Notes: generated from the sequence alone by a model not told the origin. Shown: positions 21,498 to 52,847, counted from the first letter of the stretch. The stretch: DNA of 64,000 nucleotides from Candidatus Thorarchaeota archaeon (GCA_048882045.1 JBHLRZ010000011.1:26778-90777); one strand, 5' to 3'. Numbers and translations: made by a program.

Positions 21498-21521
21498 GCT
21501 CAGGTAGCCAAGCCTGGTATG
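21498..21521 (+). pseudogene. 5' fragment of a split tRNA-Ser
   Basis: GCTCAGGTAGCCAAGCCTGGTATG is acceptor plus D arm; GCTCAGG is the exact complement of CCTGAGC in the 3' fragment; TTTATG box about 30 nt upstream. Confidence 0.8.
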
Positions 21522-21571
21522 ATTCCTAGTCAATGCTTATCTTGGAGTTGCATACTAAAGATTCGAGGTTT

Positions 21572-22153
21572 ATGGGAGCGCCTTTCATCAAACTATTCTA
21601 TAATTATGGAGCACCTGAAAGAAAGGAGATCGATGTGACAACCCTAGAGATAGGATGGAGTCCCTATGGGAAACAAGTAACTTACATTGACTTTTCAGGA
21701 TTGACTGGGAGTGATTTGATTTGGGGACTTTCAGTCAAGGGTCCGGAAATTCGTAAATTGGACCTCTCTCCGCTGGCTACTTGTCCCAACCTTCGAAATG
21801 TGAATATTGAGTACAATCCTAAATTGAAGAAAGTAGACCTGTCTCCTCTGTCAAGAAGTGACACTCTTCAGATTGTAAAAATCTTGGCAAATTCTAAACT
21901 AGTTGATTTGATACTCCCAAGCACTCCTTCCCTTAGAGAACTGAGAATATCAGGAAACGGCTTAGAACAGATAGATATCAGTCCCTTAGTTGTCTGTGAT
22001 ATACTCACAATATTCTCTATCGACGAGAGAATATCAATACTTATGGATTCGCGTTTCAAGAATGATACTAATCTGCCCAAATCTATTCAACAAATCCGCG
22101 ATCGAGTGATATGGAAAAATCCCCTGTCTAAAGAGAATGGAGCACGAGTGTGA
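21572..22153 (+). CDS. Leucine-rich repeat protein
   Basis: LDLSPLxxCxNL-type repeats. Confidence 0.75.
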   Translation: MGAPFIKLFYNYGAPERKEIDVTTLEIGWSPYGKQVTYIDFSGLTGSDLIWGLSVKGPEIRKLDLSPLATCPNLRNVNIEYNPKLKKVDLSPLSRSDTLQIVKILANSKLVDLILPSTPSLRELRISGNGLEQIDISPLVVCDILTIFSIDERISILMDSRFKNDTNLPKSIQQIRDRVIWKNPLSKENGARV

Positions 22154-22241
22154 ACTGCTGAGCTGTTTCTTGCTTCTAATTCAAGACAACCTGTCCATGA
22201 ACCTTGTTCATCCCATCATCCTTGAGAAGACTCACTAATCA

Positions 22242-22269
22242 AGACTTATCTTGGAGTTGTGTTCTAGAA
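22242..22269 (+). repeat. Repeated upstream module; identical 28-mer at 23590-23617, degenerate copies at 21536 and 22887
   Basis: AGACTTATCTTGGAGTTGTGTTCTAGAA. Confidence 0.85.
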
Positions 22270-22283
22270 GGCAATAAGGGTGT

Positions 22284-22865
22284 TTGAACGTGAGGCGTGC
22301 GATTCAGCTTATTGGCATCCTATTCGCTGTAGTAGTCTTGGTACTCACTTTCTCTCAAAACCTCGGGGAAATCCAATACCTGTTAGCATTTCTAGTATCA
22401 CTTGCAATCATAGTAATTTCATACGTAATTTCTAGGAGTGCAAGCGATAAGGAATCGCCCAAGTATTCCAAAAGGCAAATTGACCGTATGCTCCGCGCTG
22501 AGGAGAAACGCGTAGCAGAGAAAAAACCTTGGAGAACTCCCTTACGAGAATATGAGCTAGGTCCTCTTTCTAGGGAAATTGATCGGATAGAACTCGAAAC
22601 AGTGATACAGAATCCATCTATGGCAGAGGCCTATTCATTCAGAAATAGACTTGAAACGATGATACTATCAGTCGCGAGAAGGAGTATCGACGCGGGAACC
22701 GAGATATCGATGAATGAACTCTGTCAGTTGACTGGACTTGACTTTAAGACGACGAAACAGATGCTGGATTATGTTGGCCGTAGGAGAGGATTCTCCCATA
22801 AATCACGGAAGGTTGGTCCTGACCCAAGACAGGCAATGATTCAATTCTACTCAACCAGAAAGTAG
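22284..22865 (+). CDS. Hypothetical membrane protein (2 N-terminal TM helices, possible C-terminal HTH)
   Basis: Hydrophobic N-terminus; ISMNELCQLTGLDFKTTKQML. Confidence 0.6.
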   Translation: MNVRRAIQLIGILFAVVVLVLTFSQNLGEIQYLLAFLVSLAIIVISYVISRSASDKESPKYSKRQIDRMLRAEEKRVAEKKPWRTPLREYELGPLSREIDRIELETVIQNPSMAEAYSFRNRLETMILSVARRSIDAGTEISMNELCQLTGLDFKTTKQMLDYVGRRRGFSHKSRKVGPDPRQAMIQFYSTRK

Positions 22866-22998
22866 CTTTGGTTAGAACGAATCAAAACTTATGTTGAAAT
22901 TGTATTCTAAAAGGGGGGTCAAAGAGAATGGGATGCGAGTACTGTGAATCAGTGGGAAATGTGTTTCCTAGGTTATAATGATTCGGAGATGAGCCTTA

Positions 22999-23514
22999 AT
23001 GAACAATGATTGGAAGGAGAGTGTCAGAAGCCAAATTAACATGGAACTTGCAGAGATTGTGTTTCAAACTGTGCTACCAAATATAGAGATTTTACTTGAC
23101 AAAGTTCGGGATAGAAAGGACCCCGAAAAAGCATGTAGACTGGCTGATGAAATTGTTGCATCAGTTTATGATCATATTGTCAGACATCCTAGTATAGGAC
23201 AGGATTTTGCATTGAAACCTAGGAAAGTGGAATACCGTCACTTCTTGACAGTGATGATGATGACTCATCTCGATCCTGAAGACACACGCCGCCTTCCATC
23301 GATGGTGTACAAGGATACTGGGGAGGTCCCTTGGTTTGTTATTATTAGAGTTGGATTATGCTCTTTGATGATACTCTTGCATCAAGTTGTCTTTGGCTTC
23401 TTCGAGCAAGTATGGAGCAAGTCTTCATTTGCCACAATAGCAGATTGTAGCAAATCCGATGCCACTTCAGAAATGTTGACAAGATTCAACTTGGAGCTGG
23501 AAACTTGGCTGTAA
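22999..23514 (+). CDS. Hypothetical protein
   Basis: 171-aa ATG ORF, no recognised motif. Confidence 0.55.
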   Translation: MNNDWKESVRSQINMELAEIVFQTVLPNIEILLDKVRDRKDPEKACRLADEIVASVYDHIVRHPSIGQDFALKPRKVEYRHFLTVMMMTHLDPEDTRRLPSMVYKDTGEVPWFVIIRVGLCSLMILLHQVVFGFFEQVWSKSSFATIADCSKSDATSEMLTRFNLELETWL

Positions 23515-23639
23515 GTTAGTGTTGGTCCAAAACAAACTTGCTTTGAACCTCTCTCATCACATCCAGTTTCTTCAATACGGTCTCCAATCAGACTTATCTT
23601 GGAGTTGTGTTCTAGAAAGGGAGTCATGGAGAATGGGGC

Positions 23640-25361
23640 ATGAGTGTCAAGCTGGCCTACACCACTATCAATGGAAACATGGAAGAAGTTGAATTTGAGA
23701 AGGACAAGAAGACAGTTTCACTCGAGTTTAGAGATATTGTGAATGTTGACCTGACTCCACTCAAGTCCTATCCATCATTACAATCACTCGCTCTGAGTGA
23801 CAATCATCTCCAATCTATTGACCTTTCACCCCTAGCATCTATCAAAGACCTTCTACATCTCTATATATCCAGAAATCCACTAGAAAGTATTGACCTGTCA
23901 CCACTGAGTTCTTGTAGTAACTTCACATTACTCTATCTTTCAGAAAACATCCTCAAATCAGTTGATTTGTCACCACTTTCCTCCTGTTTGAAACTCGAAG
24001 ATTTGCGTCTTGAAGGAAATGGACTCCAGACTATCGATCTCGAGCCCCTCCGGTCATGTGAGTCTCTTAGATACCTCTACCTACAAGATAACAGACTTCA
24101 TGAGATTGACCTATCACCACTCAGCTCAACTAATCTAAGAAGCCTTATTCTTCGAAACAACTTGCTTGAGAGCATTGACCTGTCACCACTCAGATCCACT
24201 CCTCTCAAGTTCGGTGATCTCGTTCTGGCCCAAAATAAGCTGAAGAGTGTCAATCTGTCTGGATTTGGCTCTACTGGGTTAGAACGAGTTTTTCTGGCTC
24301 AAAATGAGCTGGAATCCATAGACCTTCTACCCCTCAGATCATGTGTGAAGCTCAGAAGAGTCACTCTTAAAGGGAACAAACTAGAGTCCGTCGATATCAC
24401 ACCTTTCTATCGATTCAAACATGCACTAGTGGAACATGATTATCATTGCATAGACTATTCATGGGTTAGACATCCAAGGAATCGTGGAACCTATAGAAGA
24501 CCTGAAAGGATGTACCCTTGGTCGTTCCTATATGAAGTGGTCAAAGATTTCCCGAATGACTATCAGGTTCAACACGACATCCTTCTGGCTCTTGAACTCG
24601 AGGATTATGGCTTCGTTGATTCCAATCTCACAGACAAGTTTCTCGCCATACCACCTGAAACAAGAACTGAAGATGTTCAAAAGTTACTCATTGAGATACT
24701 CGTAGAAGAGATAGTTGATTCTGTGGATAGAGGAGGACCAACGACAGGTCTCAATCTTGAACGACTCACGAGTAAACATTCTGAGATTGCTTTAAGGGTT
24801 CAGAGAATCGCTGAACTCAGAGCCTTGGAAATGGAAAAGCTGGTTGTGACAGTGAATGAAGACCATCTTCCGATTTTTACTGGACCAGTTGATCTACGTT
24901 ACTTCTGCTTGACGGCTTACGGATATGAGATTCTCAGAACTTTGAAAAAGACTCAAAACTATGGCACATCCTCTCTGGATGTAGAGATGGAGATATTGAG
25001 TCCCATAAAGAGAGCTCTCAAAGAAATCGGATTCACACTGAAGACTGGAGAAGGAAAATCTGGAGTGGAAATGAGTGGCAAACTCCGTAAGTGCATCTGG
25101 TGGATCAAGAAAAATGATGGTTCGAACTGGTATTCTAGAGACCTTGAACCAATAGACCGTCCTGTAACTGAATTGATAGTCCGTACAATAAGTAATCTGC
25201 TTGACGAAAGTCATAGAACAGTTGATTGGGATGAACTCACACAAGTCTTGCTAGGAAAGGGTGTTTCAAAGGATAGGGTTGATGAAACGGTTGCGATGCT
25301 AATCGCGAAGAGATACTTAGACAGAGTTTTTAACAAACTCCGTGTGACGGACAGCTTCTAG
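23640..25361 (+). CDS. Leucine-rich repeat protein with C-terminal wHTH-like tail
   Basis: About 10 LxLxxNxLxxIDLSPL repeats. Confidence 0.88.
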   Translation: MSVKLAYTTINGNMEEVEFEKDKKTVSLEFRDIVNVDLTPLKSYPSLQSLALSDNHLQSIDLSPLASIKDLLHLYISRNPLESIDLSPLSSCSNFTLLYLSENILKSVDLSPLSSCLKLEDLRLEGNGLQTIDLEPLRSCESLRYLYLQDNRLHEIDLSPLSSTNLRSLILRNNLLESIDLSPLRSTPLKFGDLVLAQNKLKSVNLSGFGSTGLERVFLAQNELESIDLLPLRSCVKLRRVTLKGNKLESVDITPFYRFKHALVEHDYHCIDYSWVRHPRNRGTYRRPERMYPWSFLYEVVKDFPNDYQVQHDILLALELEDYGFVDSNLTDKFLAIPPETRTEDVQKLLIEILVEEIVDSVDRGGPTTGLNLERLTSKHSEIALRVQRIAELRALEMEKLVVTVNEDHLPIFTGPVDLRYFCLTAYGYEILRTLKKTQNYGTSSLDVEMEILSPIKRALKEIGFTLKTGEGKSGVEMSGKLRKCIWWIKKNDGSNWYSRDLEPIDRPVTELIVRTISNLLDESHRTVDWDELTQVLLGKGVSKDRVDETVAMLIAKRYLDRVFNKLRVTDSF

Positions 25362-25376
25362 TTCAAGAAGACAAAT

Positions 25377-25490
25377 TGGCGCTGGGGGCGAGATTCGAAC
25401 TCGCGAGTGCATAGCACACTGGATGTTTGCAGAATGCTGGATCAGCTATCATTAGCAATCCAGCGCCCTACCAGGCTAGGCTACCCCAGC
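25377..25490 (-). tRNA. tRNA-Ser(GCT) with canonical 37/38 intron (25425-25452)
   Basis: Full cloverleaf with long V arm, BHB helix TTGC/GCAA, G73, encoded CCA. Confidence 0.92.
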
Positions 25491-25635
25491 TTGAGCAATC
25501 GGTTCGGAATCCCAATTCTCTCATAAACATTGTGACCGAACCTCATCTATTTGTGAAAACACATAAATCACGACCCTCGTAGAGATGCCTTGTTCAGCGG
25601 AAATTGATGTAGAGAGTGAAGCTTTATGCATACTT

Positions 25636-25716
25636 GCCGGGGTGGCTGAACGGTTAAAGCGCCTACCTGAAAAGTAGGTTTCTACGGATATGTGGGTTCG
25701 AATCCCACCCCCGCAA
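25636..25716 (+). tRNA. Aberrant type II tRNA (Leu/Ser-like body, GAA anticodon), possible pseudogene
   Basis: D, anticodon (CCTAC-CTGAAAA-GTAGG) and T arms intact; V arm with cUACGg; acceptor needs a bulge; no CCA. Confidence 0.6.
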
Positions 25717-25746
25717 GATGTTTCAGCACAACTTCTTCTCATTGTT

Positions 25747-27219
25747 CTACTTCAAGGAGAACCGACGCTGACTTACCTTCTTCCCATTCTCACGCACGAA
25801 CTTCTCCAATTCATTTTTTGAAACCTGATATATGCCATCGCCGAGCTCAAATTGGACGAGATCATGGCTATTGCTAATTGCCGAGGAATAATCAGGAACC
25901 TCAACAGATTCGGTTTCAGAAACCCATTCCATTATTTGAGGCTTTGATACCTCGATATAGGATGATTTGACAATGTCTGATTCGCTTTCCATGGCTATTA
26001 TTCCCGCCAATTCGAGAAGCTGAAGAAGAATGTTCAATCTCTTAGTGTTCTTCCCAGAACCTGGAAGATATCCAGACTTCTTACCGAGTGTTTCCTGTAA
26101 TGATTCACGAGTATATTCATCTCTCATCTGGAACAAAAGATGAATGTGGGAACCAAACCAAGTTCTGAGTAGATGAACTCTTAGTGTTTCTTTGGCATCA
26201 AGAGGGACTCCCCAATCCATGCTGGTGACAAAGCTGACTAGAGGAGGGCTTGGTTGCCATCCATCTTGATTTTCAGAGAGTAAATTGATCGACTCCCAAA
26301 ATGACAGACATGTTCTGACATTCTTTTGCGAAACACCCACAACAGATGAAACATCTGAAAGCATGACTGGTGTTCTATCCCGTTCGTACATCGCTGTGAT
26401 TACCTTCAAGGTTTCAATTTGCTTATCTAGAACTAAATTGTGACAGGGAATAGTTTCTCTTGCCGGAGTGTCACTGTAATCTCTGGATACTCTAACAGCT
26501 TTCAGTGATGCATCAAAACTAGAATCTAATGTTTCTTGAACGGGATCTTTTGGTGCTTCTAGTGAAGAATCTGTATGTCTGGCAGAGTCGTCCTTTAATT
26601 CCAACTGACTAAGTAATTTCTCATTCTGTGAGATATCAGAAGTCAGGTTGTAGATGTCACTTGGAGGGTCGAAACTCCCACCTTCCATTCCGAGACTTTT
26701 CAAGATTGGGTTCACATTGATCACGAGGATGCGACCATCTTCTTCCTTTCTGATAACACCAGAAAGAAGACCAGACTCTAGAAATGTCCGTTCAAATTGC
26801 CGGGCAACCTTATCGGTGACTCCATACTGTTGACCTATGAGGTTTCTAAGATAGAGAGGATTCTTGATTCTGGATCCTTTAAATCTTGTATACATTTCTC
26901 TGAACTTCTCCGGATTCAGGAAAGTCAGGATTCTGACTATTCTCTGTTGGGACTCTGACAAGGGCATTCGGAGAGAACGTCCTAATGGAGTCATTTCATA
27001 GTTGCCATTGTTTTGCTTGATGAGACCATACATTCCCATTGCACCTACTGCACTACCAGCACTCATACTATGAGGTGTTGTATATCCCATAATTGTTGTA
27101 AGACTGACTCGATCAACCTGTGATGCAGGTGAAAGGTCAGTAAGCCACTCTTCACATTTCGCGATTGTGTATCGGGGAAATGTGATTGTTTTAGCGCGTT
27201 TCTTAACCACGATATTCAC
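25747..27219 (-). CDS. Hypothetical protein with two predicted winged-helix regions
   Basis: AMGMYGLI..NNGNYEMTPLG and LSDVSSVVGVSQKNVRTCLSFWESINLL patterns. Confidence 0.55.
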   Translation of the reverse strand: MNIVVKKRAKTITFPRYTIAKCEEWLTDLSPASQVDRVSLTTIMGYTTPHSMSAGSAVGAMGMYGLIKQNNGNYEMTPLGRSLRMPLSESQQRIVRILTFLNPEKFREMYTRFKGSRIKNPLYLRNLIGQQYGVTDKVARQFERTFLESGLLSGVIRKEEDGRILVINVNPILKSLGMEGGSFDPPSDIYNLTSDISQNEKLLSQLELKDDSARHTDSSLEAPKDPVQETLDSSFDASLKAVRVSRDYSDTPARETIPCHNLVLDKQIETLKVITAMYERDRTPVMLSDVSSVVGVSQKNVRTCLSFWESINLLSENQDGWQPSPPLVSFVTSMDWGVPLDAKETLRVHLLRTWFGSHIHLLFQMRDEYTRESLQETLGKKSGYLPGSGKNTKRLNILLQLLELAGIIAMESESDIVKSSYIEVSKPQIMEWVSETESVEVPDYSSAISNSHDLVQFELGDGIYQVSKNELEKFVRENGKKVSQRRFSLK

Positions 27220-27308
27220 GTTCCTGCTTGCTAAAATAGCTAGCGTTCGTTACATATGGCTTAAAGTACTAGCGTACGTATTTAAAGGTACCGCTCAATA
27301 TCAACGAG

Positions 27309-27386
27309 TACTGATAGCTAATCCAGCCGTCAGCAAACATCTAGTGTGCTCTGCACTCGAGAGTTCAAATCTCTCCCTGAGCGCCA
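27309..27386 (+). pseudogene. 3' fragment of split tRNA-Ser(GCT), intron retained
   Basis: Intron homologous to 25425-25452, then ATCTAG, V arm GTGC-TCT-GCAC, GAGAG-TTCAAAT-CTCTC, CCTGAGC-G-CCA. Confidence 0.85.
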
Positions 27387-27396
27387 CTTCTTCTCT

Positions 27397-27822
27397 TCAG
27401 CCTTCTTTCAGGTGTAGACGAGTATCACAGAATGGACAATGAACAACATCCGTATCGACTGGGAGTGCATTCACGAGATCAAAGATGTTGTTGCAGTTTC
27501 CACAACGATATCTGTCAGTGCCCGAGATTCTCTCAGCTGGGAGTGCATGCTTTCTCATTGAATCGAGAATTCTATCATCCTGCGAAACATCTGTGGGAGC
27601 GATGCTTCTACCTTGTGCCCAACGAAAGGTCGCATAGAGTCCAAAAATGACCATTGGAATATAGAAGACCATATAGATTGGAATCATGTCTACAGGTCCA
27701 ATGATGGCAATACCTATCGTGCCACCCAGACCTAGAATGAGTATGAGTACAAAGAACAACCACCTAGCTGGGGAAGGACCCGGTTTCTGTTGGTATGGGT
27801 CATAGTAGTCATCTTCTGTCAT
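27397..27822 (-). CDS. Membrane protein with C-terminal Zn ribbon
   Basis: 2 TM helices; CGNC...CPFC. Confidence 0.7.
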   Translation of the reverse strand: MTEDDYYDPYQQKPGPSPARWLFFVLILILGLGGTIGIAIIGPVDMIPIYMVFYIPMVIFGLYATFRWAQGRSIAPTDVSQDDRILDSMRKHALPAERISGTDRYRCGNCNNIFDLVNALPVDTDVVHCPFCDTRLHLKEG

Positions 27823-27890
27823 AGATTGGACACTCCAAATGAAAGTAGGACCTGAAACCTACTAATCTCTTGTGTCTAGGATCAAACATA

Positions 27891-27925
27891 AAATAAGAAG
27901 AGAGAACACGGGCCTCGCAGGCCCG
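27891..27925 (-). terminator. Terminator after tuf
   Basis: CGGGCCT-CGC-AGGCCCG hairpin followed by a T-rich tract on the minus strand. Confidence 0.55.
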
Positions 27926-27941
27926 GTTCTATGAAATTGGA

Positions 27942-29276: not shown

Positions 29277-29415
29277 TCTTATTCACCACGTTGTTTTAGT
29301 CTGTCCTCTGAGCTGGACAGACTTTTGCTGTGACCTTTGGCTGTGCTTTTAACGCTTTCGACAAGGTCTATCATTCAGAAGCAATAGGAGCCTTCTATTG
29401 ATTATTGATAGAGTA

Positions 29416-29841: not shown

Positions 29842-29889
29842 AACATCTGAGGGATTATCTTAGTGGTTCAAAGGCTTTTCTGTCGAATC

Positions 29890-44032: not shown

Positions 44033-44183
44033 GTAATCACATCGTGAATGTGAAGGACGGGGGAACTACTGCTATGCACACGCTTCCCAACGCATGGATT
44101 ACCCAGAAAATCCGAGCTCACCAACTGCCTGCAATAGCCGCCCCGTTTGCATTACTCCTACAGACTCACTCCCACTCATGCAA

Positions 44184-44291
44184 TGGCGGGCTCGGCGGGA
44201 TTTGAACCCGCGGCCAATCCCCATATGGGAGATCACTCTCACATATTTCAGGTTAAAAGCCTGCTGCGCTACCTAGCTGCGCCACGAGCCC
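44184..44291 (-). tRNA. tRNA-Lys(TTT) with non-canonical intron near 43/44 (about 44217-44247)
   Basis: GCAGG-CTTTTAA-CCTG anticodon arm, hairpin insert before the variable loop, T arm, encoded CCA. Confidence 0.88.
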
Positions 44292-44610
44292 TTGAGTCAG
44301 GTTTTAACCACCTTGGCCCCATCATCTATGACATCATCGCGCATTACAACATGTCAAGTGGATGCAATTTACGACCATGCATGAGAGGGAAGCAGTTCTG
44401 TCTGAGCAAAGGACGGGGAATTCTGTATCAATAAAAGGGTTGCGATAAAACGCAGAAATGGAGTAACATCTAAGGACGGTTTGGCTTTTGTGAGCCACTT
44501 TTCTATAGGCCTCAATCAGTAATAAATCTACTCTGTAATCGACCCGTGCTGTCTATTCCAGCTCAAATCGTATCCTAGATGTTATGCCCTGACCTGTTTC
44601 TAATTCAAAG

Positions 44611-44800
44611 ATGCAAGCCCCTGTAGTGTATGACCTGCTTCTGAGATTGTGAGTGAACCACAACTGTAAGAAACCTCTGTGTTTCGCCCCTCTCTTGCCA
44701 GTGTCACCACCATCCAGCATTTTCATGAAAATGCTAAACTTAGCAAGAGCATTGTCAACGTTCATTGGGATGGGATCCCTCCTGAAGACCTGGCATCTTT
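44611..44800 (-). ncRNA. Putative TnpB omega-RNA (scaffold plus guide); 5' limit uncertain
   Basis: Dense hairpins downstream of tnpB (20-nt palindrome 44716-44735, CTCTTGC/GCAAGAG, GAAAC/GTTTC, TTGTG/CACAA), ending ...GGTCA then the anti-tRNA-Asp sequence. Confidence 0.55.
44617..44630 (+). pseudogene. 5' 14 nt of tRNA-Asp (split exon and/or TnpB guide)
   Basis: GCCCCTGTAGTGTA, identical to the first 14 nt of the tRNA-Asp at 51900-51887. Confidence 0.75.
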
Positions 44801-46438: not shown

Positions 46439-46685
46439 CGCTTTGTCTTTCCTTATTAAGTTCTGACCTGTTTCAGGCCAGTTGAGTTCACTCCAATCTT
46501 TGTCTGAAATTGGAGTAATTAACTCATAGATTTATCATACAAGTTTCCTTATTAAGTTATTATGAAAATTTATTATAAACTCTTTAATAAAGAAAATAAG
46601 AACTGATAAGTCTATTTTTATAAATTTTAGACTTCTGAATAAGTATGAAATACTTATAAATAAAATCGAGAGGAGAATAACTGGA

Positions 46686-49600
46686 GTGTCCTGTTTGGGG
46701 CGAAGAACTCAGGAATTCAGACCGAATGCAGTTCTAGCTACTGCACTTTATTCAGGATTATCAGCTCTAGTCTGGTTGGCAAATAGACGAAAGAATAGAC
46801 AGACAGAAGAAATCTTTGAGAAAATTAGAAACAAATGGAAATCTATCCAAGTGAATAAGAAAATGGATGGATCAAGCCGCCCGCATGATTTCTCTAAAGT
46901 TCAGAAGATAGAATCCCCCCTCAGAAAGCTGAATCTACGTATGCTCTGGCTTAGCACGAAACGATACGGCAACAAAGAGAGGAAGCGAGTATACAGCTGG
47001 AAAGAGGGCACCATTGGAGAACTCAATAGTCTACTGAACTATGCTGGAGCAACACTACGAGATATCGTTGTTCCACGTTATCCATTCCCAACCCCACAGC
47101 TCTACGAAATCCGAAAATATCCAGATGGAACAAAGCAAGTCATTCCAAAAGATGTGGCGGACAAGGTCCCAGCAGCACTTGGGGTGAAGACTCACTTGAA
47201 AGCGGGATATCGAGGAAACTCTAAAAATCCCAGAGTGTTATTGACACATCCAACATTACCAGCCATGGACTTTGGAGATATGCTACGAGCTCATCTCATT
47301 GAACTCTGTCGACAATGCTTCATTCATTGTGTACCTCGAACTGAGTCACATCGATACATTAGACTGCTGATTCATAGACTGACCCCATTTCTCGATTGGG
47401 TGTACACACGAGGAAAGACAGGTCGCAAGGATTTCTCCCCTTGCGCAGACAGAGAATTGAGAAAGATTGTACTTGAAATCAGGAACAACTACAGCAGACA
47501 CATTAGGACTAGAGAGAGAATCAGTAAACCAGTCGAAGATGTTCCTCAAGACTTTGGAATAGATGCTCTCAAAGAACAGGTTGAAGCAATACAAGAAACA
47601 TCAGAAGACAGAAACACCAAGAAAAAGTGTAAGACAATTCTTCAGCACATTGAGAAAAGAATCGTCACACACAGAGAAGTGGAAAAGTTCCTTGAAAACA
47701 TCATGAGTAGCGTACAACTAGAAGGGAGCAACTGGCACAGAGTGCTGCTCTCTGGATATCCTCAACCTCGCTCACTCAAAGAGGCCATCTTTGCCGGAGA
47801 CTATCTCCTTCAGAATCCTTCCGGGTTTCAGTATTTTGCTGAAGTTCCGGTCACTGGAATCCAAGGATCAGGAAAGATTGACCTTGTCCTTTTCGTTCGC
47901 ATTCGTTGGCGTGACAGCCATATCTGGGCTCCCATCATGATTCTCGAGTTGAAGACCAAGGCTGGATTCGACTTCAACCTGTTTGGTAAACGTCCCCGTA
48001 CGAAGAAACCCAATGTATTCACACCAGTCTTGAACGCTTGGAAAGAACTTCTCAAGACATCTGAATGGGGTGAAACACTTGGTTCAAAGCCCCCAACAAT
48101 CCATCTTGACCAGATAGATGCATATGAGAATGCTCTGTTATCAGAGTATCATTCAATCATCGGTGAAACTATTGCTTTTAAGCAACTCTGGAAAGGAGTG
48201 GTCACACTTGATGTTTCTCAGGAGTATGAAGACACAAAGCAAATGTTCGATCACATCATCTCCGATTTGGCTAATCGAATAATGAAAGGAGAATTCAATG
48301 GGCGGTGGAAGACACTCAAATTCAAGGACAAGCCTACGGAGCAGATAGCTCCTCGAGTAGCCATTACAATGACTCCAGCTCAGGGTCCTGTGGATGTACT
48401 AAAACGTGTCAGTCCCCTCGAAAATGTTCTATTCGAAGACCCCTTTGCTGATAGAGTGGAGGATGACACCTTCTTCACCCAGTACATTTCACTATCATCT
48501 CCAACATCATCCGGCAAGAGTGCAGCATGGTTTGCCAAGAACTGGCATCTCTTGAACCACCTTGCAGAGCTGGAACGGGCTTTGGACACAGAAACTTCTC
48601 TGACTTGGATTGATCTAATTGGTGATTTTCCAACAAAGAAACTGATAGAGAAGCGATTTGGACTTGATAATCTAAAGAAGAACAAGCTGATTACGAATTC
48701 AGAATATGCAAAACTGAGAAGTCTGTTAGAACGAGTCACCTTTGTCAGTCTTAGAGAGGATATTGATAGATTTCTCATCGACGGGAAACAATCAGGAATC
48801 GAGAGGGCGAGGTCTGCAATCACAGCAGCTCTCGAATCTGAGTCAGAGAATCAAATTACAGTTGTAGATGGCTGGTCGGACTTGGAGAACATGACTCCTG
48901 CGACTCATAGGAACAATCTACAGGTGCTTGAACTCTCACTGCTTCAGATTGTCAAGGATCTCATGAACGAGGTAATCTGGACCGATACAGGAGTTGACCT
49001 TCCACAGGTTTCCGAACTCTATCAACGGAACAGCCCAAGTCCATTCTACTACACATCTCCTAGGAAACAGGTCATTGACGAGGTTCTATGGAATGTGCCC
49101 ACAGCTCCTCAAAAGATGGGGTGGCAGACCCCGGAGTATGAGGACAGTCGAGTAATCATCCAGGACCTACCAACAGAACAAGATCCATGGTCCACGGTCA
49201 TCCATGTACCGCATCTCAAGGGTCTGGGTCGTAAGTTCAGCAAGGCTTCCGTTAGAAGTCCTATTGTCAAGATTGAGAGGCAAACTGGTGACCTGAATCA
49301 ACATGAAAATATGCATGGAAGGTCCTTTCGAAGTTCATCCATCCAGGTGCGTTCTGACACTATTGACATGACCTCCTTGGAAGAAATCACAAAGCATGCA
49401 TTTATCCTGATTCCAAGTCTTCTGAGACCTAGAGATGGACAACCACTGAGTCAGGTCAATGAACATAGTGTTGATTGGTCAACGACCTATCACAATGTCA
49501 ATGTAAACAGTGTTCATCCAAGTCTATCAAGCAGACTGCATCTTGACGTGGACAGAGAGCCACCACATCCAAATCGAATAGGAATTGGTCATGAGGGAAT

Positions 49601-51776
49601 CTACGTTGAGGCAAGGTCCATCACACGTGGGTGGATTCACAAGGAAACTGATGAAGAGGAAGAAGAATCGGTAACGATCACCCGAAGACCAGCTTTTACT
49701 TATTCATCTGAATCAACTCATATCGATACGATTGATACCAGACGAAGAGAAGTCCTACGGTTGTCATACGCTGCTGAGTTCCTCAGTAAGAGACCAACTT
49801 CCTACCGCTCTCTCTACAGAAAGATCGTTTCACTCTGTACCTATGACAACAACGAAACTACTGAGGAGAATCTACTGGGAATACTCACTCAAGTCAGAGA
49901 GGTCATTCTTCACCGAACTGAGACTCAGCGTCTCTGGACACTTCTCCTCAATGACAGGTTGAATCTTGGAAACCTACTGAACTCTGTTAACCTGAAGACA
50001 CTGCAACAAGCATTGGGTCATAATCCTGAACTCATGGATCTCTATGGGATGAATCTCTTTCTTGGAGTGCTTGATGTAGCAACTAGGGTCCTGAGAGATG
50101 CAGAGTCCCCTCATTGTAACGATCTATGGTCATCAGTTGCACGATGGCAGCTCTATCAGATTGGTTTTAGGCAGCAGGATGAGGGAGAATTCGAACACCG
50201 GTATGACTTTCAAGCAATCCACTCAAATCTCACATGGAGGGCGAAACAGATGAAGAAGACAACTTCGCGGATAACCACAAGATTTCCTGAGCAACACGGA
50301 CTATTGCTCTTTCAAGAGAAGAGTGATGGTGGCAGTATCTGGCTACTGTTTCCCTCAATCAAGAAGACTATATTTGGTGCGCTGTTGGAGGAGCAGATGA
50401 GTGCCATTCTTCGCTATGGGTGGCACAGAGGTGAGATAGATCCTCAAAAACTCTCGAAGAGTGCAAAAAGTGCCCTGTCAAGAGACGGGTGGATGGAATA
50501 TCCCATTGTTCTTGTTTCTGTGAACAAACAACACGTGCTCTACACAAAGGACGAGGAAGAATGGGTTCAGTCTGGTCTGTTGGAGTATGGAAATCCTCCA
50601 AAGGAGCAGAGTCAACCTGCACGTTGGATCAGACTGTCGCAACCGTCACCCGAAACTCTTGCAGTCTTGTATGGGTACAGGCCAGGTTCCTTTAACACTG
50701 AGGTCGAAATAGAGTGTGACGAAGTGTTAAAGGAGGCTGCTGAGTGGAGTGGTGTAGTAAGGGAGGTTTCGTGTTTTCTCACCATTGACCCTGAGAAGAA
50801 GGTTTACAGGATTGACCTGAATGAAGGCTCAAAGACCATAGCAAAGAAGGAAACTCAGTATACTGATGAAGCGATTAGATTCCTCAGATACCCCCAGAGA
50901 ATTGGAGAATACTTTTCGACTGCAGACGGTACATACCTCAAGTGGGATGCTCGGAAAGACATCGAGTATGATGAAGTGAAACTCAAGAACAGAGATGGGA
51001 AGTATGACTTCTATCACTTGTCAGTGTTCAAGCCACTCATCCACAGATACTCGTTCTTTTCAGACAGCTACAAGTTACCTTCGACCTGTGAGGACTTCTT
51101 GATGACCAAGGCTGGTGAGGACATAACTCTGAGAATAGTAGTGGATGAACAACGAAAGGACCGAGGTTACAAGAAGTATCTCAAGGTCCGGCTAGATGGA
51201 CTACAGGGAAGAGGACATCTGATTGGTCTTGAGATGGAGGACATGGGGATATTCGATGTGGCACTATTGGCAGAATCCGGACAACTTGTGGACTCGGATT
51301 CTGGGAAGAGGTGCGATGTCACGATTAATTCAAAGGCTCTTGTTAGTCTTAGAGTGGTTCATCTCCTCTCTGATTATCCACGAACTCAAAACTCAATAAT
51401 TGGGGATATAGAGGAACTTGAATCAGCTGAATTGGAAGAGTCAAAATTGACTGATGACGAACTGTTCGAAATCGATGATTCAACACCAGAACTTAGGTTT
51501 GTCAGAGTCCATGTGGAGGAATCTTTACGACAGAGATCTTTGGATGCGATTGCACATCTGTGCAATGTAGATGACGAAACTGACTTTGAGGAGGTGGTAG
51601 TAGTATCAGTATCATCTGAGATTGCAAAGAACCAATCGGTATCTTTTGACTTCATCGAGCATGAAGTCAAGCTCAATCTGAGAGGTCGTAGAGTAAGCAA
51701 TGTCACAATAGAATCCATCTTGAAAGAGGTAGAAGATGCGTTTGAAAACAAGGGAGTAGCAATTGATTATTACTAG
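46686..51776 (+). CDS. Giant uncharacterised protein with PD-(D/E)XK nuclease and P-loop-like regions
   Basis: E386..IDL(D399)..ELK(421-423), QIDAY; SPTSSGKS near 605; VVDG near 726. Confidence 0.7.
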   Translation: MSCLGRRTQEFRPNAVLATALYSGLSALVWLANRRKNRQTEEIFEKIRNKWKSIQVNKKMDGSSRPHDFSKVQKIESPLRKLNLRMLWLSTKRYGNKERKRVYSWKEGTIGELNSLLNYAGATLRDIVVPRYPFPTPQLYEIRKYPDGTKQVIPKDVADKVPAALGVKTHLKAGYRGNSKNPRVLLTHPTLPAMDFGDMLRAHLIELCRQCFIHCVPRTESHRYIRLLIHRLTPFLDWVYTRGKTGRKDFSPCADRELRKIVLEIRNNYSRHIRTRERISKPVEDVPQDFGIDALKEQVEAIQETSEDRNTKKKCKTILQHIEKRIVTHREVEKFLENIMSSVQLEGSNWHRVLLSGYPQPRSLKEAIFAGDYLLQNPSGFQYFAEVPVTGIQGSGKIDLVLFVRIRWRDSHIWAPIMILELKTKAGFDFNLFGKRPRTKKPNVFTPVLNAWKELLKTSEWGETLGSKPPTIHLDQIDAYENALLSEYHSIIGETIAFKQLWKGVVTLDVSQEYEDTKQMFDHIISDLANRIMKGEFNGRWKTLKFKDKPTEQIAPRVAITMTPAQGPVDVLKRVSPLENVLFEDPFADRVEDDTFFTQYISLSSPTSSGKSAAWFAKNWHLLNHLAELERALDTETSLTWIDLIGDFPTKKLIEKRFGLDNLKKNKLITNSEYAKLRSLLERVTFVSLREDIDRFLIDGKQSGIERARSAITAALESESENQITVVDGWSDLENMTPATHRNNLQVLELSLLQIVKDLMNEVIWTDTGVDLPQVSELYQRNSPSPFYYTSPRKQVIDEVLWNVPTAPQKMGWQTPEYEDSRVIIQDLPTEQDPWSTVIHVPHLKGLGRKFSKASVRSPIVKIERQTGDLNQHENMHGRSFRSSSIQVRSDTIDMTSLEEITKHAFILIPSLLRPRDGQPLSQVNEHSVDWSTTYHNVNVNSVHPSLSSRLHLDVDREPPHPNRIGIGHEGIYVEARSITRGWIHKETDEEEEESVTITRRPAFTYSSESTHIDTIDTRRREVLRLSYAAEFLSKRPTSYRSLYRKIVSLCTYDNNETTEENLLGILTQVREVILHRTETQRLWTLLLNDRLNLGNLLNSVNLKTLQQALGHNPELMDLYGMNLFLGVLDVATRVLRDAESPHCNDLWSSVARWQLYQIGFRQQDEGEFEHRYDFQAIHSNLTWRAKQMKKTTSRITTRFPEQHGLLLFQEKSDGGSIWLLFPSIKKTIFGALLEEQMSAILRYGWHRGEIDPQKLSKSAKSALSRDGWMEYPIVLVSVNKQHVLYTKDEEEWVQSGLLEYGNPPKEQSQPARWIRLSQPSPETLAVLYGYRPGSFNTEVEIECDEVLKEAAEWSGVVREVSCFLTIDPEKKVYRIDLNEGSKTIAKKETQYTDEAIRFLRYPQRIGEYFSTADGTYLKWDARKDIEYDEVKLKNRDGKYDFYHLSVFKPLIHRYSFFSDSYKLPSTCEDFLMTKAGEDITLRIVVDEQRKDRGYKKYLKVRLDGLQGRGHLIGLEMEDMGIFDVALLAESGQLVDSDSGKRCDVTINSKALVSLRVVHLLSDYPRTQNSIIGDIEELESAELEESKLTDDELFEIDDSTPELRFVRVHVEESLRQRSLDAIAHLCNVDDETDFEEVVVVSVSSEIAKNQSVSFDFIEHEVKLNLRGRRVSNVTIESILKEVEDAFENKGVAIDYY

Positions 51777-51792
51777 TTCATGAGTCAAAAAG

Positions 51793-51900
51793 TGGCGCCC
51801 CCGCCGGGATTCGAACCCGGGTCTCAAGAGTGACAGTCTTGAATGCTAATCCGGATACTGTAAAACATCTACAGTATTGACCGTACTACACTACAGGGGC
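51793..51900 (-). tRNA. tRNA-Asp(GTC), intact, with D-loop intron (51849-51878)
   Basis: CAAGA-CTGTCAC-TCTTG, CCGGG-TTCGAAT-CCCGG, G73, CCA; 30-nt hairpin insert in the D loop. Confidence 0.92.
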
Positions 51901-51995
51901 TGCGGTTCGGTTGGAGCAAAGTCGATTTTCTATTAAACTCATCGGTCGAGAACATATAACTACGGACGAGTTCTATTAGATATTGAGGAGTTATT

Positions 51996-52628
51996 GTGAA
52001 AGATGATGATTCACCTGATAATTGGATTCAGGTTAGATTATTCTACAATGCCTTTGAAAATGAGAAGATAAGAAAGCTAGATCAACGGGTTTTAGAAGTA
52101 GGTTCAGATCTAGAGAATGAAGAGCTTGCAGAAAGTTGGCACATTAGATTCTCCGGACCTTACATCTCATTACGTGTCAAAACTAAACCTAGAAATCGAG
52201 CAGAGGTTGAAAGCCGAATTGAAGCATTGAAAAAAGAATTGACTAACGAGAATCTAATCAGAGATTCTAAGATTGATTTGAAAGAATTTCTCCAAAGTAA
52301 TGAAGTCCCTTCCGATCTCGAATCATGGAAAGAATGGAACATCTTGATGGAGATTCTCAACTTATGTAGTCGAATCGTCAGGATGGTACATAAACTGGAG
52401 AAACACGAACGTAGATTGTATATGACACATAACAAAGTAATCCATCACTTCTATAACATGGCACATATTCAGGACACATTCATTCCCTTTCTAATGAAGT
52501 ATCCATATGACAGTATCATTGGCTTTCTGGAGGAGGGGGAGGGAGAGAAACTCACGAGGATTGTAAAAGACTTAGGTGCAGAAGAGAAACAATGGTATAT
52601 GAAATTACATTTTGGTCAGATGATTTAA
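51996..52628 (+). CDS. Hypothetical protein, weak resemblance to lantibiotic dehydratase C-terminal domain
   Basis: WIQVRLFY...WHIRFSGPYISLRV...IHHFYN. Confidence 0.45.
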   Translation: MKDDDSPDNWIQVRLFYNAFENEKIRKLDQRVLEVGSDLENEELAESWHIRFSGPYISLRVKTKPRNRAEVESRIEALKKELTNENLIRDSKIDLKEFLQSNEVPSDLESWKEWNILMEILNLCSRIVRMVHKLEKHERRLYMTHNKVIHHFYNMAHIQDTFIPFLMKYPYDSIIGFLEEGEGEKLTRIVKDLGAEEKQWYMKLHFGQMI

Positions 52629-52692
52629 TCATTCGCAAAATAAGGGGTGCTATGGAATCCAGAATCCATGGTTATTCGAAAAAGTAAGGATT

Positions 52693-52847
52693 TGACGGTC
52701 TAGCATTCAAGACTGTCAATCCAAAGTGGTTGGCACCTTGGAACGGATCTCTTGAGACTCTCTCATTCGTGAGAGAGCCAGAGAAAGACCCGGGTTCAAG
52801 AGGAATCATGAATTCCATGGTTTTTGGAAATCCCGGCGGGGGCGCCA
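52693..52847 (+). tRNA. 3' part of split tRNA-Asp(GTC) with three BHB introns (52719-52748, 52755-52785, 52801-52830)
   Basis: Removing the three inserts gives GACGGTCTAGCATTCAAGACTGTCACTCTTGAGACCCGGGTTCAAGTCCCGGCGGGGGCGCCA. Confidence 0.85.

What the first reader, a model, noticed from the sequence alone, without database searches (positions are those of the whole stretch)
21498..52847. Same architecture twice: split tRNA with an inverted intact isoacceptor inside
Both the Ser(GCT) and Asp(GTC) loci read: 5' piece (+), cargo, full tRNA (-), one protein gene, 3' piece (+). Ordinary tRNA-integrating elements leave a direct repeat of the 3' end and restore the gene. Here the resident gene is broken in the D arm and the intact copy is inverted and differs in sequence or intron content. 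Two instances in 64 kb with unrelated cargo suggest a general mechanism, either tRNA-replacement islands or separately transcribed tRNA halves. TATA-like boxes precede the pieces (21463, 27281, 52624, weakly 44581).
Basis: partly seen in the sequence, partly recalled or inferred. Interest (0 to 1): 0.88.

Follow-up and report, generated by a model that had tools for sequence, protein, structure and literature searches.

The report
Broken tRNA genes with inverted spare copies
Two tRNA genes of this Thorarchaeota (Asgard) genome were each cut in two by inserted DNA that also holds a complete, oppositely oriented copy of the same tRNA; the cut pieces look like dead leftovers, not working "split tRNA" halves.

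Summary
The pieces are real, far beyond chance, and lie where related genomes have one intact tRNA-Ser(GCT) and one intact tRNA-Asp(GTC). Contigs from several sequencing runs bridge both Ser junctions.

The resident genes were broken by insertions of 5.8 kb (Ser) and 8.1 kb (Asp). The inverted copies are complete genes with promoters homologous to the native one, so they most likely do the work.

Four results argue against trans-spliced halves:
- An intact isoacceptor is present at both loci.
- The Ser pieces lack 17 nt, including the anticodon.
- The flanks show no trailer/leader pairing.
- Relatives that share the Asp layout have lost one piece or the other.

At Asp, the break coincides exactly with the end of a TnpB element. 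That element, joined to a 1,696-aa ORF, forms a ~7-kb unit found in many copies across the genus and often beside tRNA sequence. Elsewhere the same unit sits at tRNA-Gly with ordinary direct repeats. The Ser insert is specific to this genome and has no recognisable mobility gene.

How the inverted spare came to lie inside each insert is unresolved. This is a new variant of tRNA-targeted mobile DNA, of moderate interest. Other first-stage notes of this scan had already recorded both loci.

The parts
21452..21497 (+). Native promoter region of the broken tRNA-Ser gene (S allele)
   Evidence: Aligns with the region upstream of the intact tRNA-Ser of G004 and with the upstream region of the window's own intact copy (inverted repeats I2 and I4).
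21498..21519 (+). tRNA-Ser(GCT) 5' piece: acceptor 5' strand, D-stem 5' strand and D loop
   Evidence: Its acceptor strand pairs 7/7 with the 3' piece.
21520..27311 (.). 5.8-kb insert in tRNA-Ser, specific to this genome
   Evidence: Apart from the tRNA itself, no DNA homolog of the insert was found in 27 genomes of the genus. G004, G012, G005, G011, G006, G009 and G015 have an uninterrupted gene at this site.
21533..25361 (+). Four tandem gene units, each opened by a 28-46-nt conserved leader; units 1 and 4 encode LRR proteins
   Evidence: (D2, D4).
25377..25490 (-). Intact tRNA-Ser(GCT), R allele, with a 28-nt intron at 37/38 and an encoded CCA
   Evidence: Rfam tRNA 50.2 bits. It is the only intact Ser(GCT) gene in the assembly.
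25491..25542 (-). Promoter region of the intact tRNA-Ser copy, homologous to resident promoters
   Evidence: I4: 23 nt, 91%.
25636..25715 (+). Class-II-shaped tRNA-like gene with anticodon loop CTGAAAA; the acceptor stem is one base short and no CCA is encoded
25747..27219 (-). 490-aa ORF of unknown family
   Evidence: No Pfam, PHROG or NCBIfam hit. One homolog among 5.8 billion proteins. The AF2 model is poor, with a repeated helix-helix-helix-strand-strand pattern.
27312..27386 (+). tRNA-Ser(GCT) 3' piece: intron, anticodon-stem 3' strand, variable arm, T arm, acceptor 3' strand and CCA; continuous with the conserved downstream flank
44617..44630 (+). tRNA-Asp(GTC) 5' piece (positions 1-14)
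   Evidence: Also present in G004 and in G016 contig C66.
44631..46527 (-). TnpB element: right end at 44631, tnpB at 44762-46438, left end at about 46527
   Evidence: TnpB family hits. Multicopy in the genus. Ends defined by aligning copies. The ORF is intact in G000 and G004.
46686..51776 (+). 1,696-aa ORF ('Big') that travels with the TnpB element as a ~7.1-kb unit
   Evidence: Contiguous homology from 44631/44650 to about 51700 in G009, G001 (two copies), G013 and G003. No family or PDB hit. Invariant D399..E421xK423 and SSGKS 609-611.
51793..51900 (-). Intact tRNA-Asp(GTC) with a 30-nt D-loop intron and an encoded CCA
   Evidence: It is the only intact Asp(GTC) gene in the assembly.
51901..51960 (-). 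Promoter region of the intact tRNA-Asp, homologous to resident promoters of relatives
51996..52628 (+). 210-aa ORF of unknown function; not conserved at this position in G004
52695..52847 (+). tRNA-Asp(GTC) 3' piece (D loop to CCA) with three insertions (37/38, variable region, T loop); 82-86% like the uninterrupted genes of G015, G014 and G012
53787..53808 (+). Further direct repeat of the tRNA-Asp 3' acceptor end; with 52828-52849 it brackets the methyltransferase gene at 52944-53780
   Evidence: D3.

Best explanation
Both loci are resident single-copy tRNA genes that were destroyed by insertion of foreign or mobile DNA into the body of the gene. The pieces are non-functional relics. Decoding is done by the complete second copy that lies, with its own native-type promoter, inside the inserted DNA.

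Asp. The break is the right end of an IS200/IS605-like TnpB element that inserted in the D loop. That element belongs to a ~7-kb TnpB plus giant-ORF unit that repeatedly lands in or beside tRNA genes in this genus. The event is old, being shared with G004, G016 and G012, and the relics are being lost piecemeal.

Ser. A 5.8-kb insert specific to this genome replaced 17 nt of the gene. The spare copy it carries is a distinct allele, about as far from the resident allele as alleles of other species are, so it most likely came in with the insert from a related archaeon.

Inferred, not shown. An insertion into an essential single-copy tRNA gene can survive only if a spare is present, which would explain why both inserts hold one. 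An inverted spare cannot delete the insert by recombining with the pieces, which would explain why inverted spares persist. How each spare was captured is not known.
For: Resident status of the pieces.
- In congeners, one intact tRNA-Ser lies between the SRP-RNA region and the Zn-ribbon/EF-1alpha genes.
- One intact tRNA-Asp(+) lies after rpoB and tRNA-Lys.
- The window's 3' pieces run straight into those conserved flanks.
- The Ser 5' piece carries the G004-type promoter.

The Ser pieces and the spare are separate genes with no crossover. The acceptor stems co-vary within S (GCTCAGG/CCTGAGC) and within R (GCTGGGG/CCCCAGC). Over the 75-nt 3' part, R is 85% identical to S and to the G004 allele, while S is 89% identical to the G004 allele.

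Only one intact Ser(GCT) and one intact Asp(GTC) exist in the assembly.

Asp break.
- tRNA homology stops exactly where the element's right end begins.
- IS-only copies lose homology right after ...ACTCGTAC.
- The antisense D loop of tRNA-Asp reads GTAC followed by the 14 nt that now flank the right end.
- This fits IS605-style insertion 3' of a target-adjacent motif, without target duplication.

The unit is mobile and tRNA-associated.
- Many copies exist.
- The right-end flank is tRNA-derived at five or more independent loci.

Age and decay. G004 keeps the 5' piece, but its 3' piece is only the T arm plus acceptor. G012 keeps a 3' piece but has lost the 5' piece and most of the element.

The Ser insert has no DNA homolog in 27 congeners.

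The junctions are real.
Against: - No mobility gene was recognised in the Ser insert.
- The left end of the TnpB element is not followed by the rest of tRNA-Asp. A simple IS insertion therefore does not explain the remaining 6 kb of the Asp insert, which holds the giant ORF, the spare tRNA and the 210-aa ORF.
- The spare Asp is not a regular part of the TnpB/giant-ORF unit. Copies in G009, G001, G013 and G003 lack it.
- The exons of the 3' pieces show no substitutions even though the Asp event is old. This could mean selection. However, obviously useless T-arm/acceptor fragments in the same arrays are equally perfect.
- No Y1 transposase or tyrosine integrase was found in the 93%-complete assembly, so the enzyme that moved these DNAs is unknown.
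Confidence: 0.68

Rival explanations
1. RNA-guided replacement drive (Asp). The TnpB nuclease is guided by the tRNA-Asp sequence that flanks its right end. It cuts uninterrupted tRNA-Asp genes in the D loop, and repair copies in the element together with a spare tRNA. This would be the RNA-guided counterpart of the phage 'HNH nuclease plus spare tRNA' cassettes seen elsewhere in this scan.
For: - The right end abuts the 5' piece, so the predicted guide is antisense to tRNA-Asp positions 1-14 plus 6 upstream nt.
- GTAC, the conserved last four bases at the left end of IS-only copies, precedes the matching sequence on the antisense strand of tRNA-Asp.
- TnpB is intact in G000 and G004, with 89% aa against 91% nt identity and the RuvC and zinc-ribbon motifs present.
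- Other copies of the element also have tRNA-derived right-end flanks.
- Naive intact alleles exist in close relatives G014 and G016 contig C151.
Against: - The spare copy itself keeps GTAC plus a 15-nt match (51883-51901), so it is not obviously protected.
- The target-adjacent motif is inferred from sequence conservation only.
- The spare tRNA is absent from other copies of the unit.
- All four genomes with the layout appear to share one inherited event, so spread is not shown.
- This says nothing about the Ser locus, which has no nuclease.
Confidence: 0.15
2. Ordinary att-type integration at the tRNA, followed by one or more inversions. Integration would give an intact tRNA on one side and a 3'-part repeat on the other. 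Later inversions, caused by a recombinase or by repeats, would have flipped the intact gene with its promoter into the island.
For: - The same TnpB/giant-ORF unit shows the ordinary layout at tRNA-Gly(TCC) in G001 and G013. There the full tRNA ends ...CCA directly against the right end, and a 45-nt direct repeat of the tRNA 3' half follows the giant ORF's stop codon.
- Direct repeats of the Asp 3' end are common downstream of tRNA-Asp in the genus and bracket the methyltransferase gene here.
- The Asp 3' piece keeps the introns of resident alleles, while the intact copy lacks them, as expected for an attR/attL pair.
- Integrase-driven inversions at tRNA genes are documented in Thermococcales (PMC5495485).
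Against: - At Ser, a crossover inside the tRNA would give chimeric acceptor stems, and none is seen.
- At least two inversions are needed to reach the Asp order while leaving a 14-nt 5' piece at the element end.
- No integrase was found in the inserts or in the assembly.
Confidence: 0.12
3. Functional split tRNA genes. The 5' and 3' pieces are transcribed separately and joined by the splicing endonuclease and ligase, as in Nanoarchaeum, Caldivirga, or tRNA-Asp of Aeropyrum and Thermosphaera.
For: - The Ser 5' piece keeps a native promoter.
- TATA-like boxes lie upstream of the 3' pieces.
- The Asp pieces together lack at most 2 nt.
- The exons and acceptor pairing of the pieces are undamaged.
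- This genus has many non-canonical tRNA introns, so its splicing endonuclease is probably permissive.
Against: - Intact isoacceptor genes are present.
- The Ser pieces lack 17 nt including the anticodon, and no third piece was found.
- Trailer/leader duplex energy is no better than shuffled sequence: Ser 0.66 and Asp 0.09 of shuffles reach it.
- The 5' piece of Asp is followed directly by the TnpB element end.
- The pieces are not conserved in G004 and G012.
Confidence: 0.04
4. Assembly or binning artefact that joins unrelated contigs at repeated tRNA sequence.
For: tRNA repeats do break assemblies. In G016, for example, the locus is spread over contigs C66, C140 and C151.
Against: - Unitig-level contigs from runs of two studies cross both Ser junctions with zero differences.
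- The Asp layout is found in three other independently assembled genomes.
Confidence: 0.01

Closest known systems
Recently split tRNA genes of Crenarchaeota (tRNA-Asp(GUC) of Aeropyrum pernix and Thermosphaera aggregans, tRNA-Lys(CUU) of Staphylothermus; Chan, Cozen and Lowe 2011, PMC3218864)
   Same: An archaeal tRNA gene, even the same isoacceptor Asp(GTC), is separated into pieces near a site of genome rearrangement, while relatives keep the gene whole. In T. aggregans the parts are also inverted.
   Different: In those cases the halves are the only source of that tRNA. They are cut at an intron position, carry complementary leader/trailer sequence forming a bulge-helix-bulge, and are modelled as trans-spliced. 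Here a complete spare gene exists, no complementarity is found, the Ser pieces are incomplete, and the pieces decay in relatives.
tRNA-gene integrative elements and 'gene capture' arrays of archaea (She et al. 2001/2002 as cited in PMC3218864; review PMC8371274)
   Same: tRNA genes act as landing sites, leaving partial tRNA copies that bound cargo genes. Direct 3'-end repeats of this kind are present around tRNA-Asp here and in relatives, and around the same TnpB/giant-ORF unit at tRNA-Gly in G001 and G013.
   Different: At the two loci of the finding the resident gene is not restored. The intact copy is inverted and is a whole gene with a promoter. No integrase was found.
Free-standing homing-endonuclease cassettes with a spare tRNA in phage tRNA clusters
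   Same: The order is 5' tRNA piece, whole spare tRNA plus other gene(s), 3' tRNA piece, with naive intact alleles in relatives. The logic is the same: the disruption is compensated by a spare.
   Different: The phage cassettes are about 0.5-1 kb, the spare is in direct orientation, and an HNH or GIY-YIG gene is adjacent. Here the inserts are 6-8 kb and the spare is inverted. The only nuclease is a TnpB at the far end (Asp), and none is seen at Ser.
IS200/IS605-family TnpB elements (OMEGA systems; review PMC13565253)
   Same: A TnpB with RuvC and zinc-ribbon motifs, conserved left and right ends, many full and truncated copies, and no target duplication at the Asp 5' junction.
   Different: No TnpA was found in the genome. 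The element is usually coupled to a giant ORF. Its right-end flanks are often tRNA sequences. At tRNA-Gly the unit is bounded by 45-nt direct repeats, which IS605 transposition does not make.
Aloposons of Heimdallarchaeia (Wu et al. 2022, PMC8813620)
   Same: Asgard mobile elements built around giant ORFs of unknown function, which integrate at tRNA genes lying just downstream of the giant gene.
   Different: Aloposons carry two tandem 3,000-6,000-aa genes and a ParA-like module, and no TnpB is reported. Here there is one 1,700-1,900-aa ORF plus TnpB. Homology was not tested.

Membership tests
Trans-spliced split tRNA genes | The pieces are the only source of that isoacceptor (no intact gene in the genome) | tested here: not met
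   Intact Ser(GCT) at 25377-25490 and intact Asp(GTC) at 51793-51900.
Trans-spliced split tRNA genes | The pieces together supply every nucleotide of the mature tRNA | tested here: not met
   Ser lacks 17 nt (positions about 22-38), and no third piece was found in the assembly. Asp lacks at most 2 D-loop nt.
Trans-spliced split tRNA genes | Complementary trailer and leader that bring the halves together and form a bulge-helix-bulge | tested here: not met
   RNAduplex of the 100-nt flanks: Ser -28.3 against a shuffle mean of -30.0, Asp -37.1 against -30.6 (9% of shuffles reach it).
Trans-spliced split tRNA genes | Each piece has its own promoter | tested here: inconclusive
   The Ser 5' piece has the native promoter. 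The other TATA-like boxes are shared with neighbouring ORFs or are weak.
Trans-spliced split tRNA genes | The mature joined tRNA is detectable | not testable with these tools
   No RNA run is listed as holding the stretch.
att-type tRNA integrative element / genomic island | Intact tRNA at one end and a direct repeat of its 3' part at the other | tested here: not met
   At both loci the intact copy is inverted and internal. The feature is met for the same unit at tRNA-Gly in G001 and G013 and for the methyltransferase cassette.
att-type tRNA integrative element / genomic island | The element encodes a tyrosine or serine integrase | tested here: not met
   No such domain in any ORF of either insert. 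Pfam Phage_integrase has no match in the 93%-complete assembly.
IS200/IS605-type TnpB element (Asp insert, 44631-46527) | TnpB with RuvC and zinc-ribbon motifs | tested here: met
   PF07282 at 5e-13, NF040570 at 1e-23, phrog_506 at 6e-26. GIDLG, CxxC..CxxC and NADRNG motifs are visible.
IS200/IS605-type TnpB element (Asp insert, 44631-46527) | Conserved ends and multiple copies at unrelated sites | tested here: met
   Dozens of full and truncated copies in G012 and G015. Right and left ends were aligned.
IS200/IS605-type TnpB element (Asp insert, 44631-46527) | Insertion 3' of a short target-adjacent motif, without target duplication | tested here: inconclusive
   IS-only copies end in ...ACTCGTAC, and GTAC precedes the right-end flank sequence in antisense tRNA-Asp. 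No empty site was recovered to prove the boundary.
IS200/IS605-type TnpB element (Asp insert, 44631-46527) | A Y1 (TnpA) transposase is available | tested here: not met
   PF01797 has no match in the assembly.
Homing-nuclease cassette with spare tRNA | A site-specific nuclease gene travels with the spare tRNA inside the broken gene | tested here: inconclusive
   Asp has a TnpB, but 5 kb from the spare, and other copies of the unit carry no spare. Ser has no nuclease domain.
Homing-nuclease cassette with spare tRNA | The spare allele is immune to the nuclease | not tested
   By sequence the spare Asp keeps GTAC plus a 15-nt match to the predicted guide (51883-51901; I13). Cleavage was not assayed.

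The most novel reading that the evidence does not exclude
The TnpB/giant-ORF unit may be an RNA-guided element whose guide is set by the tRNA sequence next to its right end. In that reading it homes into tRNA genes of Asgard archaea. At tRNA-Asp it would persist because it is linked to a spare tRNA, making it an RNA-guided version of the 'nuclease plus spare tRNA' replacement cassettes known so far only from phage protein nucleases.
Probability: 0.15. Interest if true: 0.8.

Novelty: new variant of a known kind. Interest (0 to 1): 0.5.

Why it matters
Split tRNA genes are central to the debate on how tRNAs arose, and they have not been reported from the Asgard relatives of eukaryotes. It therefore matters that these two look-alikes are insertion scars and not trans-spliced genes. 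Annotation pipelines and searches for split tRNAs would otherwise over-call them.

On the positive side, the loci show that tRNA genes in this Thorarchaeota genus are hit inside the gene body. They also show that such hits survive when a spare gene is linked.

The work also turned up a multicopy unit made of a TnpB gene and a giant ORF that repeatedly neighbours tRNA sequence. I found no description of such a unit. Its nuclease and target-adjacent motif can be tested directly.

Tried and rejected
- ARAGORN, with and without intron mode, mis-called the intron-rich genes: Ser as Trp, Asp as Arg, Lys as 'Stop'. I did not use it for the census. Rfam tRNA hits were used instead.
- Third Ser piece. 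A short-word BLAST and a mismatch-tolerant pattern search of the whole assembly gave only chance-level hits in unrelated contexts.
- Trailer/leader complementarity: none beyond shuffled controls.
- Genome-wide scan for orphan T-arm/acceptor/CCA ends. It found the Ser piece, one more 3' fragment at C19:63543-63570, and the known tRNA-Val array. It misses pieces with T-loop introns, so it is not a complete census.
- RNA evidence: no RNA holder is listed for the stretch.
- The 490-aa ORF had no family hit and only one distant homolog, on a 2.7-kb contig with no tRNA. Its AF2 model had mean pLDDT 44.6, so I ran no fold search.
- The giant ORF had no hit in Pfam, NCBIfam, PHROGs, PDB sequences (single sequence and profile) or the Atlas. 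The AF2 model of residues 330-760 had mean pLDDT 47.1, so I ran no fold search.
- The 490-aa and 210-aa ORFs next to the 3' pieces are unrelated.
- An intact tRNA-Arg(CCG) elsewhere in G015 was not found within 3 mismatches.
- I looked for a TnpB element end at the Ser junctions. Only short similarities appeared (TATGA at the left junction, ACGAGTAC at the right), and I judged them to be chance.


Full report
**What is in the sequence**

Rfam finds five tRNAs in the window:
- Pro, at 5477.
- Ser(GCT), on the minus strand at 25380-25490, with a 28-nt intron.
- A class-II-shaped tRNA-like gene at 25636-25715.
- Lys(TTT), on the minus strand at 44187-44291.
- A low-scoring Asp(GTC), on the minus strand near 51796.

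*Ser.* The sequence GCTCAGGTAGCCAAGCCTGGTA at 21498-21519 is the acceptor 5' strand, the D-stem 5' strand and the D loop. The stretch 27312-27386 aligns at 85% over 75 nt with the intron plus 3' exon of the intact copy and ends in CCA. The acceptor strands of the two pieces pair perfectly (GCTCAGG/CCTGAGC) and differ from those of the intact copy (GCTGGGG/CCCCAGC). The pieces are therefore two parts of one gene, which I call allele S. The intact copy is a second, self-consistent gene, allele R. The 17 nt between the D loop and the intron are missing. They comprise the D-stem 3' strand, the anticodon-stem 5' strand and the anticodon.

*Asp.* GCCCCTGTAGTGTA at 44617-44630 is an exact copy of positions 1-14. 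The stretch 52695-52847 runs from the D loop to CCA, with insertions at 37/38, in the variable region and in the T loop. The intact copy (51793-51900, minus strand) has a 30-nt D-loop intron instead.

Chance does not explain these matches. The expected number of matches is 0.01 for the Asp piece and 0.00 for the Ser piece, and the only other match in each case is the intact gene.

**Not an artefact**

Contigs built independently from public runs cross both Ser junctions without a single difference. X1 record 1 and X2 record 9 cover 21000-22264. X1 record 7, X2 record 15 and X7 record 22 cover 24792-27384 or beyond. X1 and X2 may be source samples. The Asp layout is present in other genomes of the genus that were assembled separately (see the Asp section below).

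**The pieces are the resident genes**

Earlier scan notes identify the genome as a Thorarchaeota genome. I compared 27-30 genomes of the same genus.

At the Ser site, G004, G012, G005, G011, G006, G009 and G015 have one uninterrupted tRNA-Ser(GCT). It lies between the SRP-RNA region (window about 19000-19650) and the Zn-ribbon/EF-1alpha genes. The window's 3' piece runs without a break into that conserved downstream flank. The 5' piece carries a promoter region that aligns with the one in G004. G004 has only this one Ser(GCT) gene.

At the Asp site, G015, G014, G003, G007, G013, G001, G031, G032, G034, G008 and G016 contig C151 have one tRNA-Asp(+) about 100-300 nt after rpoB and tRNA-Lys. The uninterrupted genes of G015 and G014 carry the same introns as the window's 3' piece, at 82-86% identity including the introns. 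The window's two Asp pieces therefore look like such a gene cut open.

**The intact copies are whole genes with native-type promoters**

Both inverted copies are preceded by about 50-60 nt that align with the promoter regions of the resident genes of relatives. They are therefore not att fragments.

For Ser, over the 75-nt 3' part, R is 85% identical to S and to the G004 allele, while S is 89% identical to the G004 allele. R has the acceptor stem of the G005/G011/G006 group but an intron of the G004/S type. R is thus a foreign allele or an old paralogous one.

There is no R/S chimera. This argues against any crossover within the tRNA, whether site-specific or homologous, as the origin of the Ser layout.

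**What was inserted at Ser (21520-27311)**

The insert holds:
- Four tandem units, each opened by a conserved 28-46-nt leader. Two of them encode LRR proteins.
- The R tRNA.
- A defective-looking class-II tRNA-like gene.
- A 490-aa ORF with no family hit and a single distant homolog among 5.8 billion proteins.

Apart from the tRNA, none of this DNA has a homolog in the 27 congeners. I recognised no transposase, integrase or nuclease. The mechanism of insertion is therefore unknown. The 17-nt loss and the lack of repeats at the junctions fit illegitimate joining at a break, but that is inference.

**What was inserted at Asp (44631-52694)**

The first 1.9 kb is a TnpB element. G012 and G015 hold dozens of full and truncated copies of it. 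Aligning about 25 right ends shows that the element ends with T(A/G)ACC..., about 20 nt outside the conserved GTGAGTGAAC core. In the window this places the element end at 44631, directly against the last base of the tRNA piece. The Asp break is therefore an IS insertion junction.

IS-only copies lose homology just after ...ACTCGTAC at the left end. If that GTAC is the target-adjacent motif, the antisense strand of tRNA-Asp offers GTAC immediately before the 14 nt that now flank the right end. This is the geometry expected for an IS200/IS605-type insertion, and it is inferred, not shown.

The left end, however, is not followed by the rest of the tRNA. It is followed by a 1,696-aa ORF. The element and this ORF form a ~7.1-kb unit that is contiguous and homologous in G009, G001 (two copies), G013 and G003, and the ORF has many further paralogs.

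The ORF has no hit in any library. It does have invariant D..ExK and SSGKS motifs.

**The unit and tRNA genes**

In G001:C27 and G013:C22 the unit lies in an ordinary layout. A full tRNA-Gly(TCC) ends ...CCA directly against the right end. Right after the giant ORF's stop codon comes a 45-nt direct repeat of the tRNA's 3' half.

Other copies also touch tRNA sequence:
- In G015:C148 the right end abuts a tRNA-Arg(CCG) 5' half cut at 37/38.
- In G001:C6 it abuts a T-arm fragment.
- In G015:C174 and G012:C285 it abuts a D-arm fragment next to tRNA-Arg(TCG).

tRNA genes make up about 0.1% of these genomes. Five independent tRNA-derived flanks among about 24 copies is therefore a real association.

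The closest published analogy I found is the aloposons of Heimdallarchaeia, which are giant-gene elements that integrate at tRNA genes downstream of the giant gene (PMC8813620).

**Age of the Asp event and fate of the pieces**

*G004 (contig C94).* It has the same order: 5' piece, TnpB, giant ORF (91% aa), inverted intact Asp with the same promoter. Its '3' piece' is only the T arm plus acceptor.

*G016.* It has the 5' piece and TnpB on C66. The giant ORF and the inverted Asp are on C140.

*G012.* It has the inverted Asp and a 3' piece starting in the D loop. It has lost the 5' piece, most of TnpB and the whole giant ORF.

*Close relatives.* G014 and G016 contig C151 still have the uninterrupted gene.

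The layout is therefore inherited from a common ancestor and is decaying differently in each lineage. That is what relics do and what functional halves should not do.

The exons of the surviving 3' pieces are unchanged. This is not good evidence for function, because the short and plainly useless acceptor-end repeats in the same arrays are equally perfect.

**Tests of the split-tRNA reading**

The defining features are taken from the Desulfurococcales cases, which include tRNA-Asp(GUC) (PMC3218864).

| Feature | Result here |
|---|---|
| No intact copy of the isoacceptor | Not met |
| Pieces supply the full set of nucleotides | Not met for Ser; near-met for Asp |
| Complementary leader/trailer forming a BHB | Not met |
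| Each piece has its own promoter | Only the Ser 5' piece has a convincing one |
| Mature RNA detectable | Could not be tested |

**What remains open**

I cannot say how each spare gene came to lie, inverted, inside the insert. I considered three routes.

1. The insert arrived as one piece that already contained a tRNA gene captured from a donor's integration site. For Ser this fits the foreign allele and the absence of chimeras.
2. An ordinary integration was followed by inversions. This is possible for Asp. It needs two inversions and is contradicted for Ser.
3. Nuclease-driven replacement. For Asp, the predicted TnpB guide is antisense to the tRNA's 5' end, and TnpB is intact in G000 and G004. 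However, the spare keeps GTAC plus a 15-nt match, and other copies of the unit carry no spare.

No tyrosine integrase and no Y1 transposase were found in the 93%-complete assembly.

Two points are arguments from selection, not observations. A spare is needed for such an insertion to survive. An inverted spare cannot delete the insert by recombining with the pieces.

**Verdict**

The 'separately transcribed halves' reading is rejected with fair confidence. The 'replacement island' reading holds as a description.

The two loci share an outcome, not a demonstrated common mechanism. Interest is moderate: this is a new variant of tRNA-targeted mobile DNA. The side finding, the tRNA-associated TnpB/giant-ORF unit, deserves its own follow-up.

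Other first-stage notes of this scan had already recorded both loci (e1-5583689, e1-5583697). A follow-up on this genome's tRNA-Val array reported related scars (e1-5584041).

Noticed in passing
window 44631-51790; also L039-L043, L067-L069: A ~7.1-kb unit made of a TnpB element and a 1,700-1,900-aa ORF of no known family is multicopy in the genus. Its right-end flank is tRNA-derived at five or more independent loci. At tRNA-Gly in G001 and G013 it is bounded by a full tRNA and a 45-nt direct repeat of that tRNA's 3' half.
   Followed up: partly
window 46448-46462 and 46544-46558; same positions in other copies: In each copy of the TnpB element, a copy-specific ~15-nt TATA-containing string upstream of tnpB is repeated just outside the left-end hairpins. 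The ~95-nt left-end module therefore looks as if it sits inside a short duplication. I have no explanation for this.
   Followed up: no
window 21533-25361: Four tandem ~700-nt units each begin with the same 28-46-nt leader (AGACTTATCTTGGAGTTGTGTTCTAGAA...). The leader occurs nowhere else in the assembly. The first leader starts 13 nt after the tRNA break.
   Followed up: partly
window 25636-25715 (+): A class-II-shaped tRNA-like gene (long variable arm, Ser/Leu-type D arm) has anticodon loop CTGAAAA (GAA, a Phe anticodon) and discriminator A. Its acceptor stem is one base short and no CCA is encoded. It is either a pseudogene or an odd recoding tRNA. No homolog was found in 27 congeners.
   Followed up: no
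whole assembly (G000): Pfam Phage_integrase (which includes the Xer type) and Y1_Tnp gave no match in the 93%-complete genome, although every control genome matched the former. Three TnpB-type genes are present.
   Followed up: no
window 52828-52849 and 53787-53808; L023, L024, L032, L034, L036: Single genes near tRNA-Asp are bracketed by direct repeats of the tRNA's last ~16-22 nt. Examples are the methyltransferase here and in G004, an LRR-like ORF in G004, and others elsewhere. The pattern is a cassette array like the tRNA-Val array reported earlier for this genome.
   Followed up: partly
window 52646-52681 compared with 52800-52830; T-loop introns of Ser in G006, G015 and G009: T-loop introns of different tRNAs in the genus share a CATGAWTNCCATG core. 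The sequence just upstream of the Asp 3' piece is 24/29 identical to that piece's own T-loop intron, which suggests a mobile intron family. Intron positions also differ between orthologous genes of sister species.
   Followed up: no
G000 C19:63543-63570 (-): Another orphan tRNA 3' fragment (T arm, acceptor CGAGCGC, CCA) lies directly after a protein gene, near a contig end. No matching 5' strand lies nearby.
   Followed up: partly
L067 (G015:C148:19688-19727): A tRNA-Arg(CCG) 5' half with its promoter is cut at 37/38 by the TnpB element. No second copy of this 5' half was found in G015 within 3 mismatches, so that genome may lack a working tRNA-Arg(CCG).
   Followed up: partly
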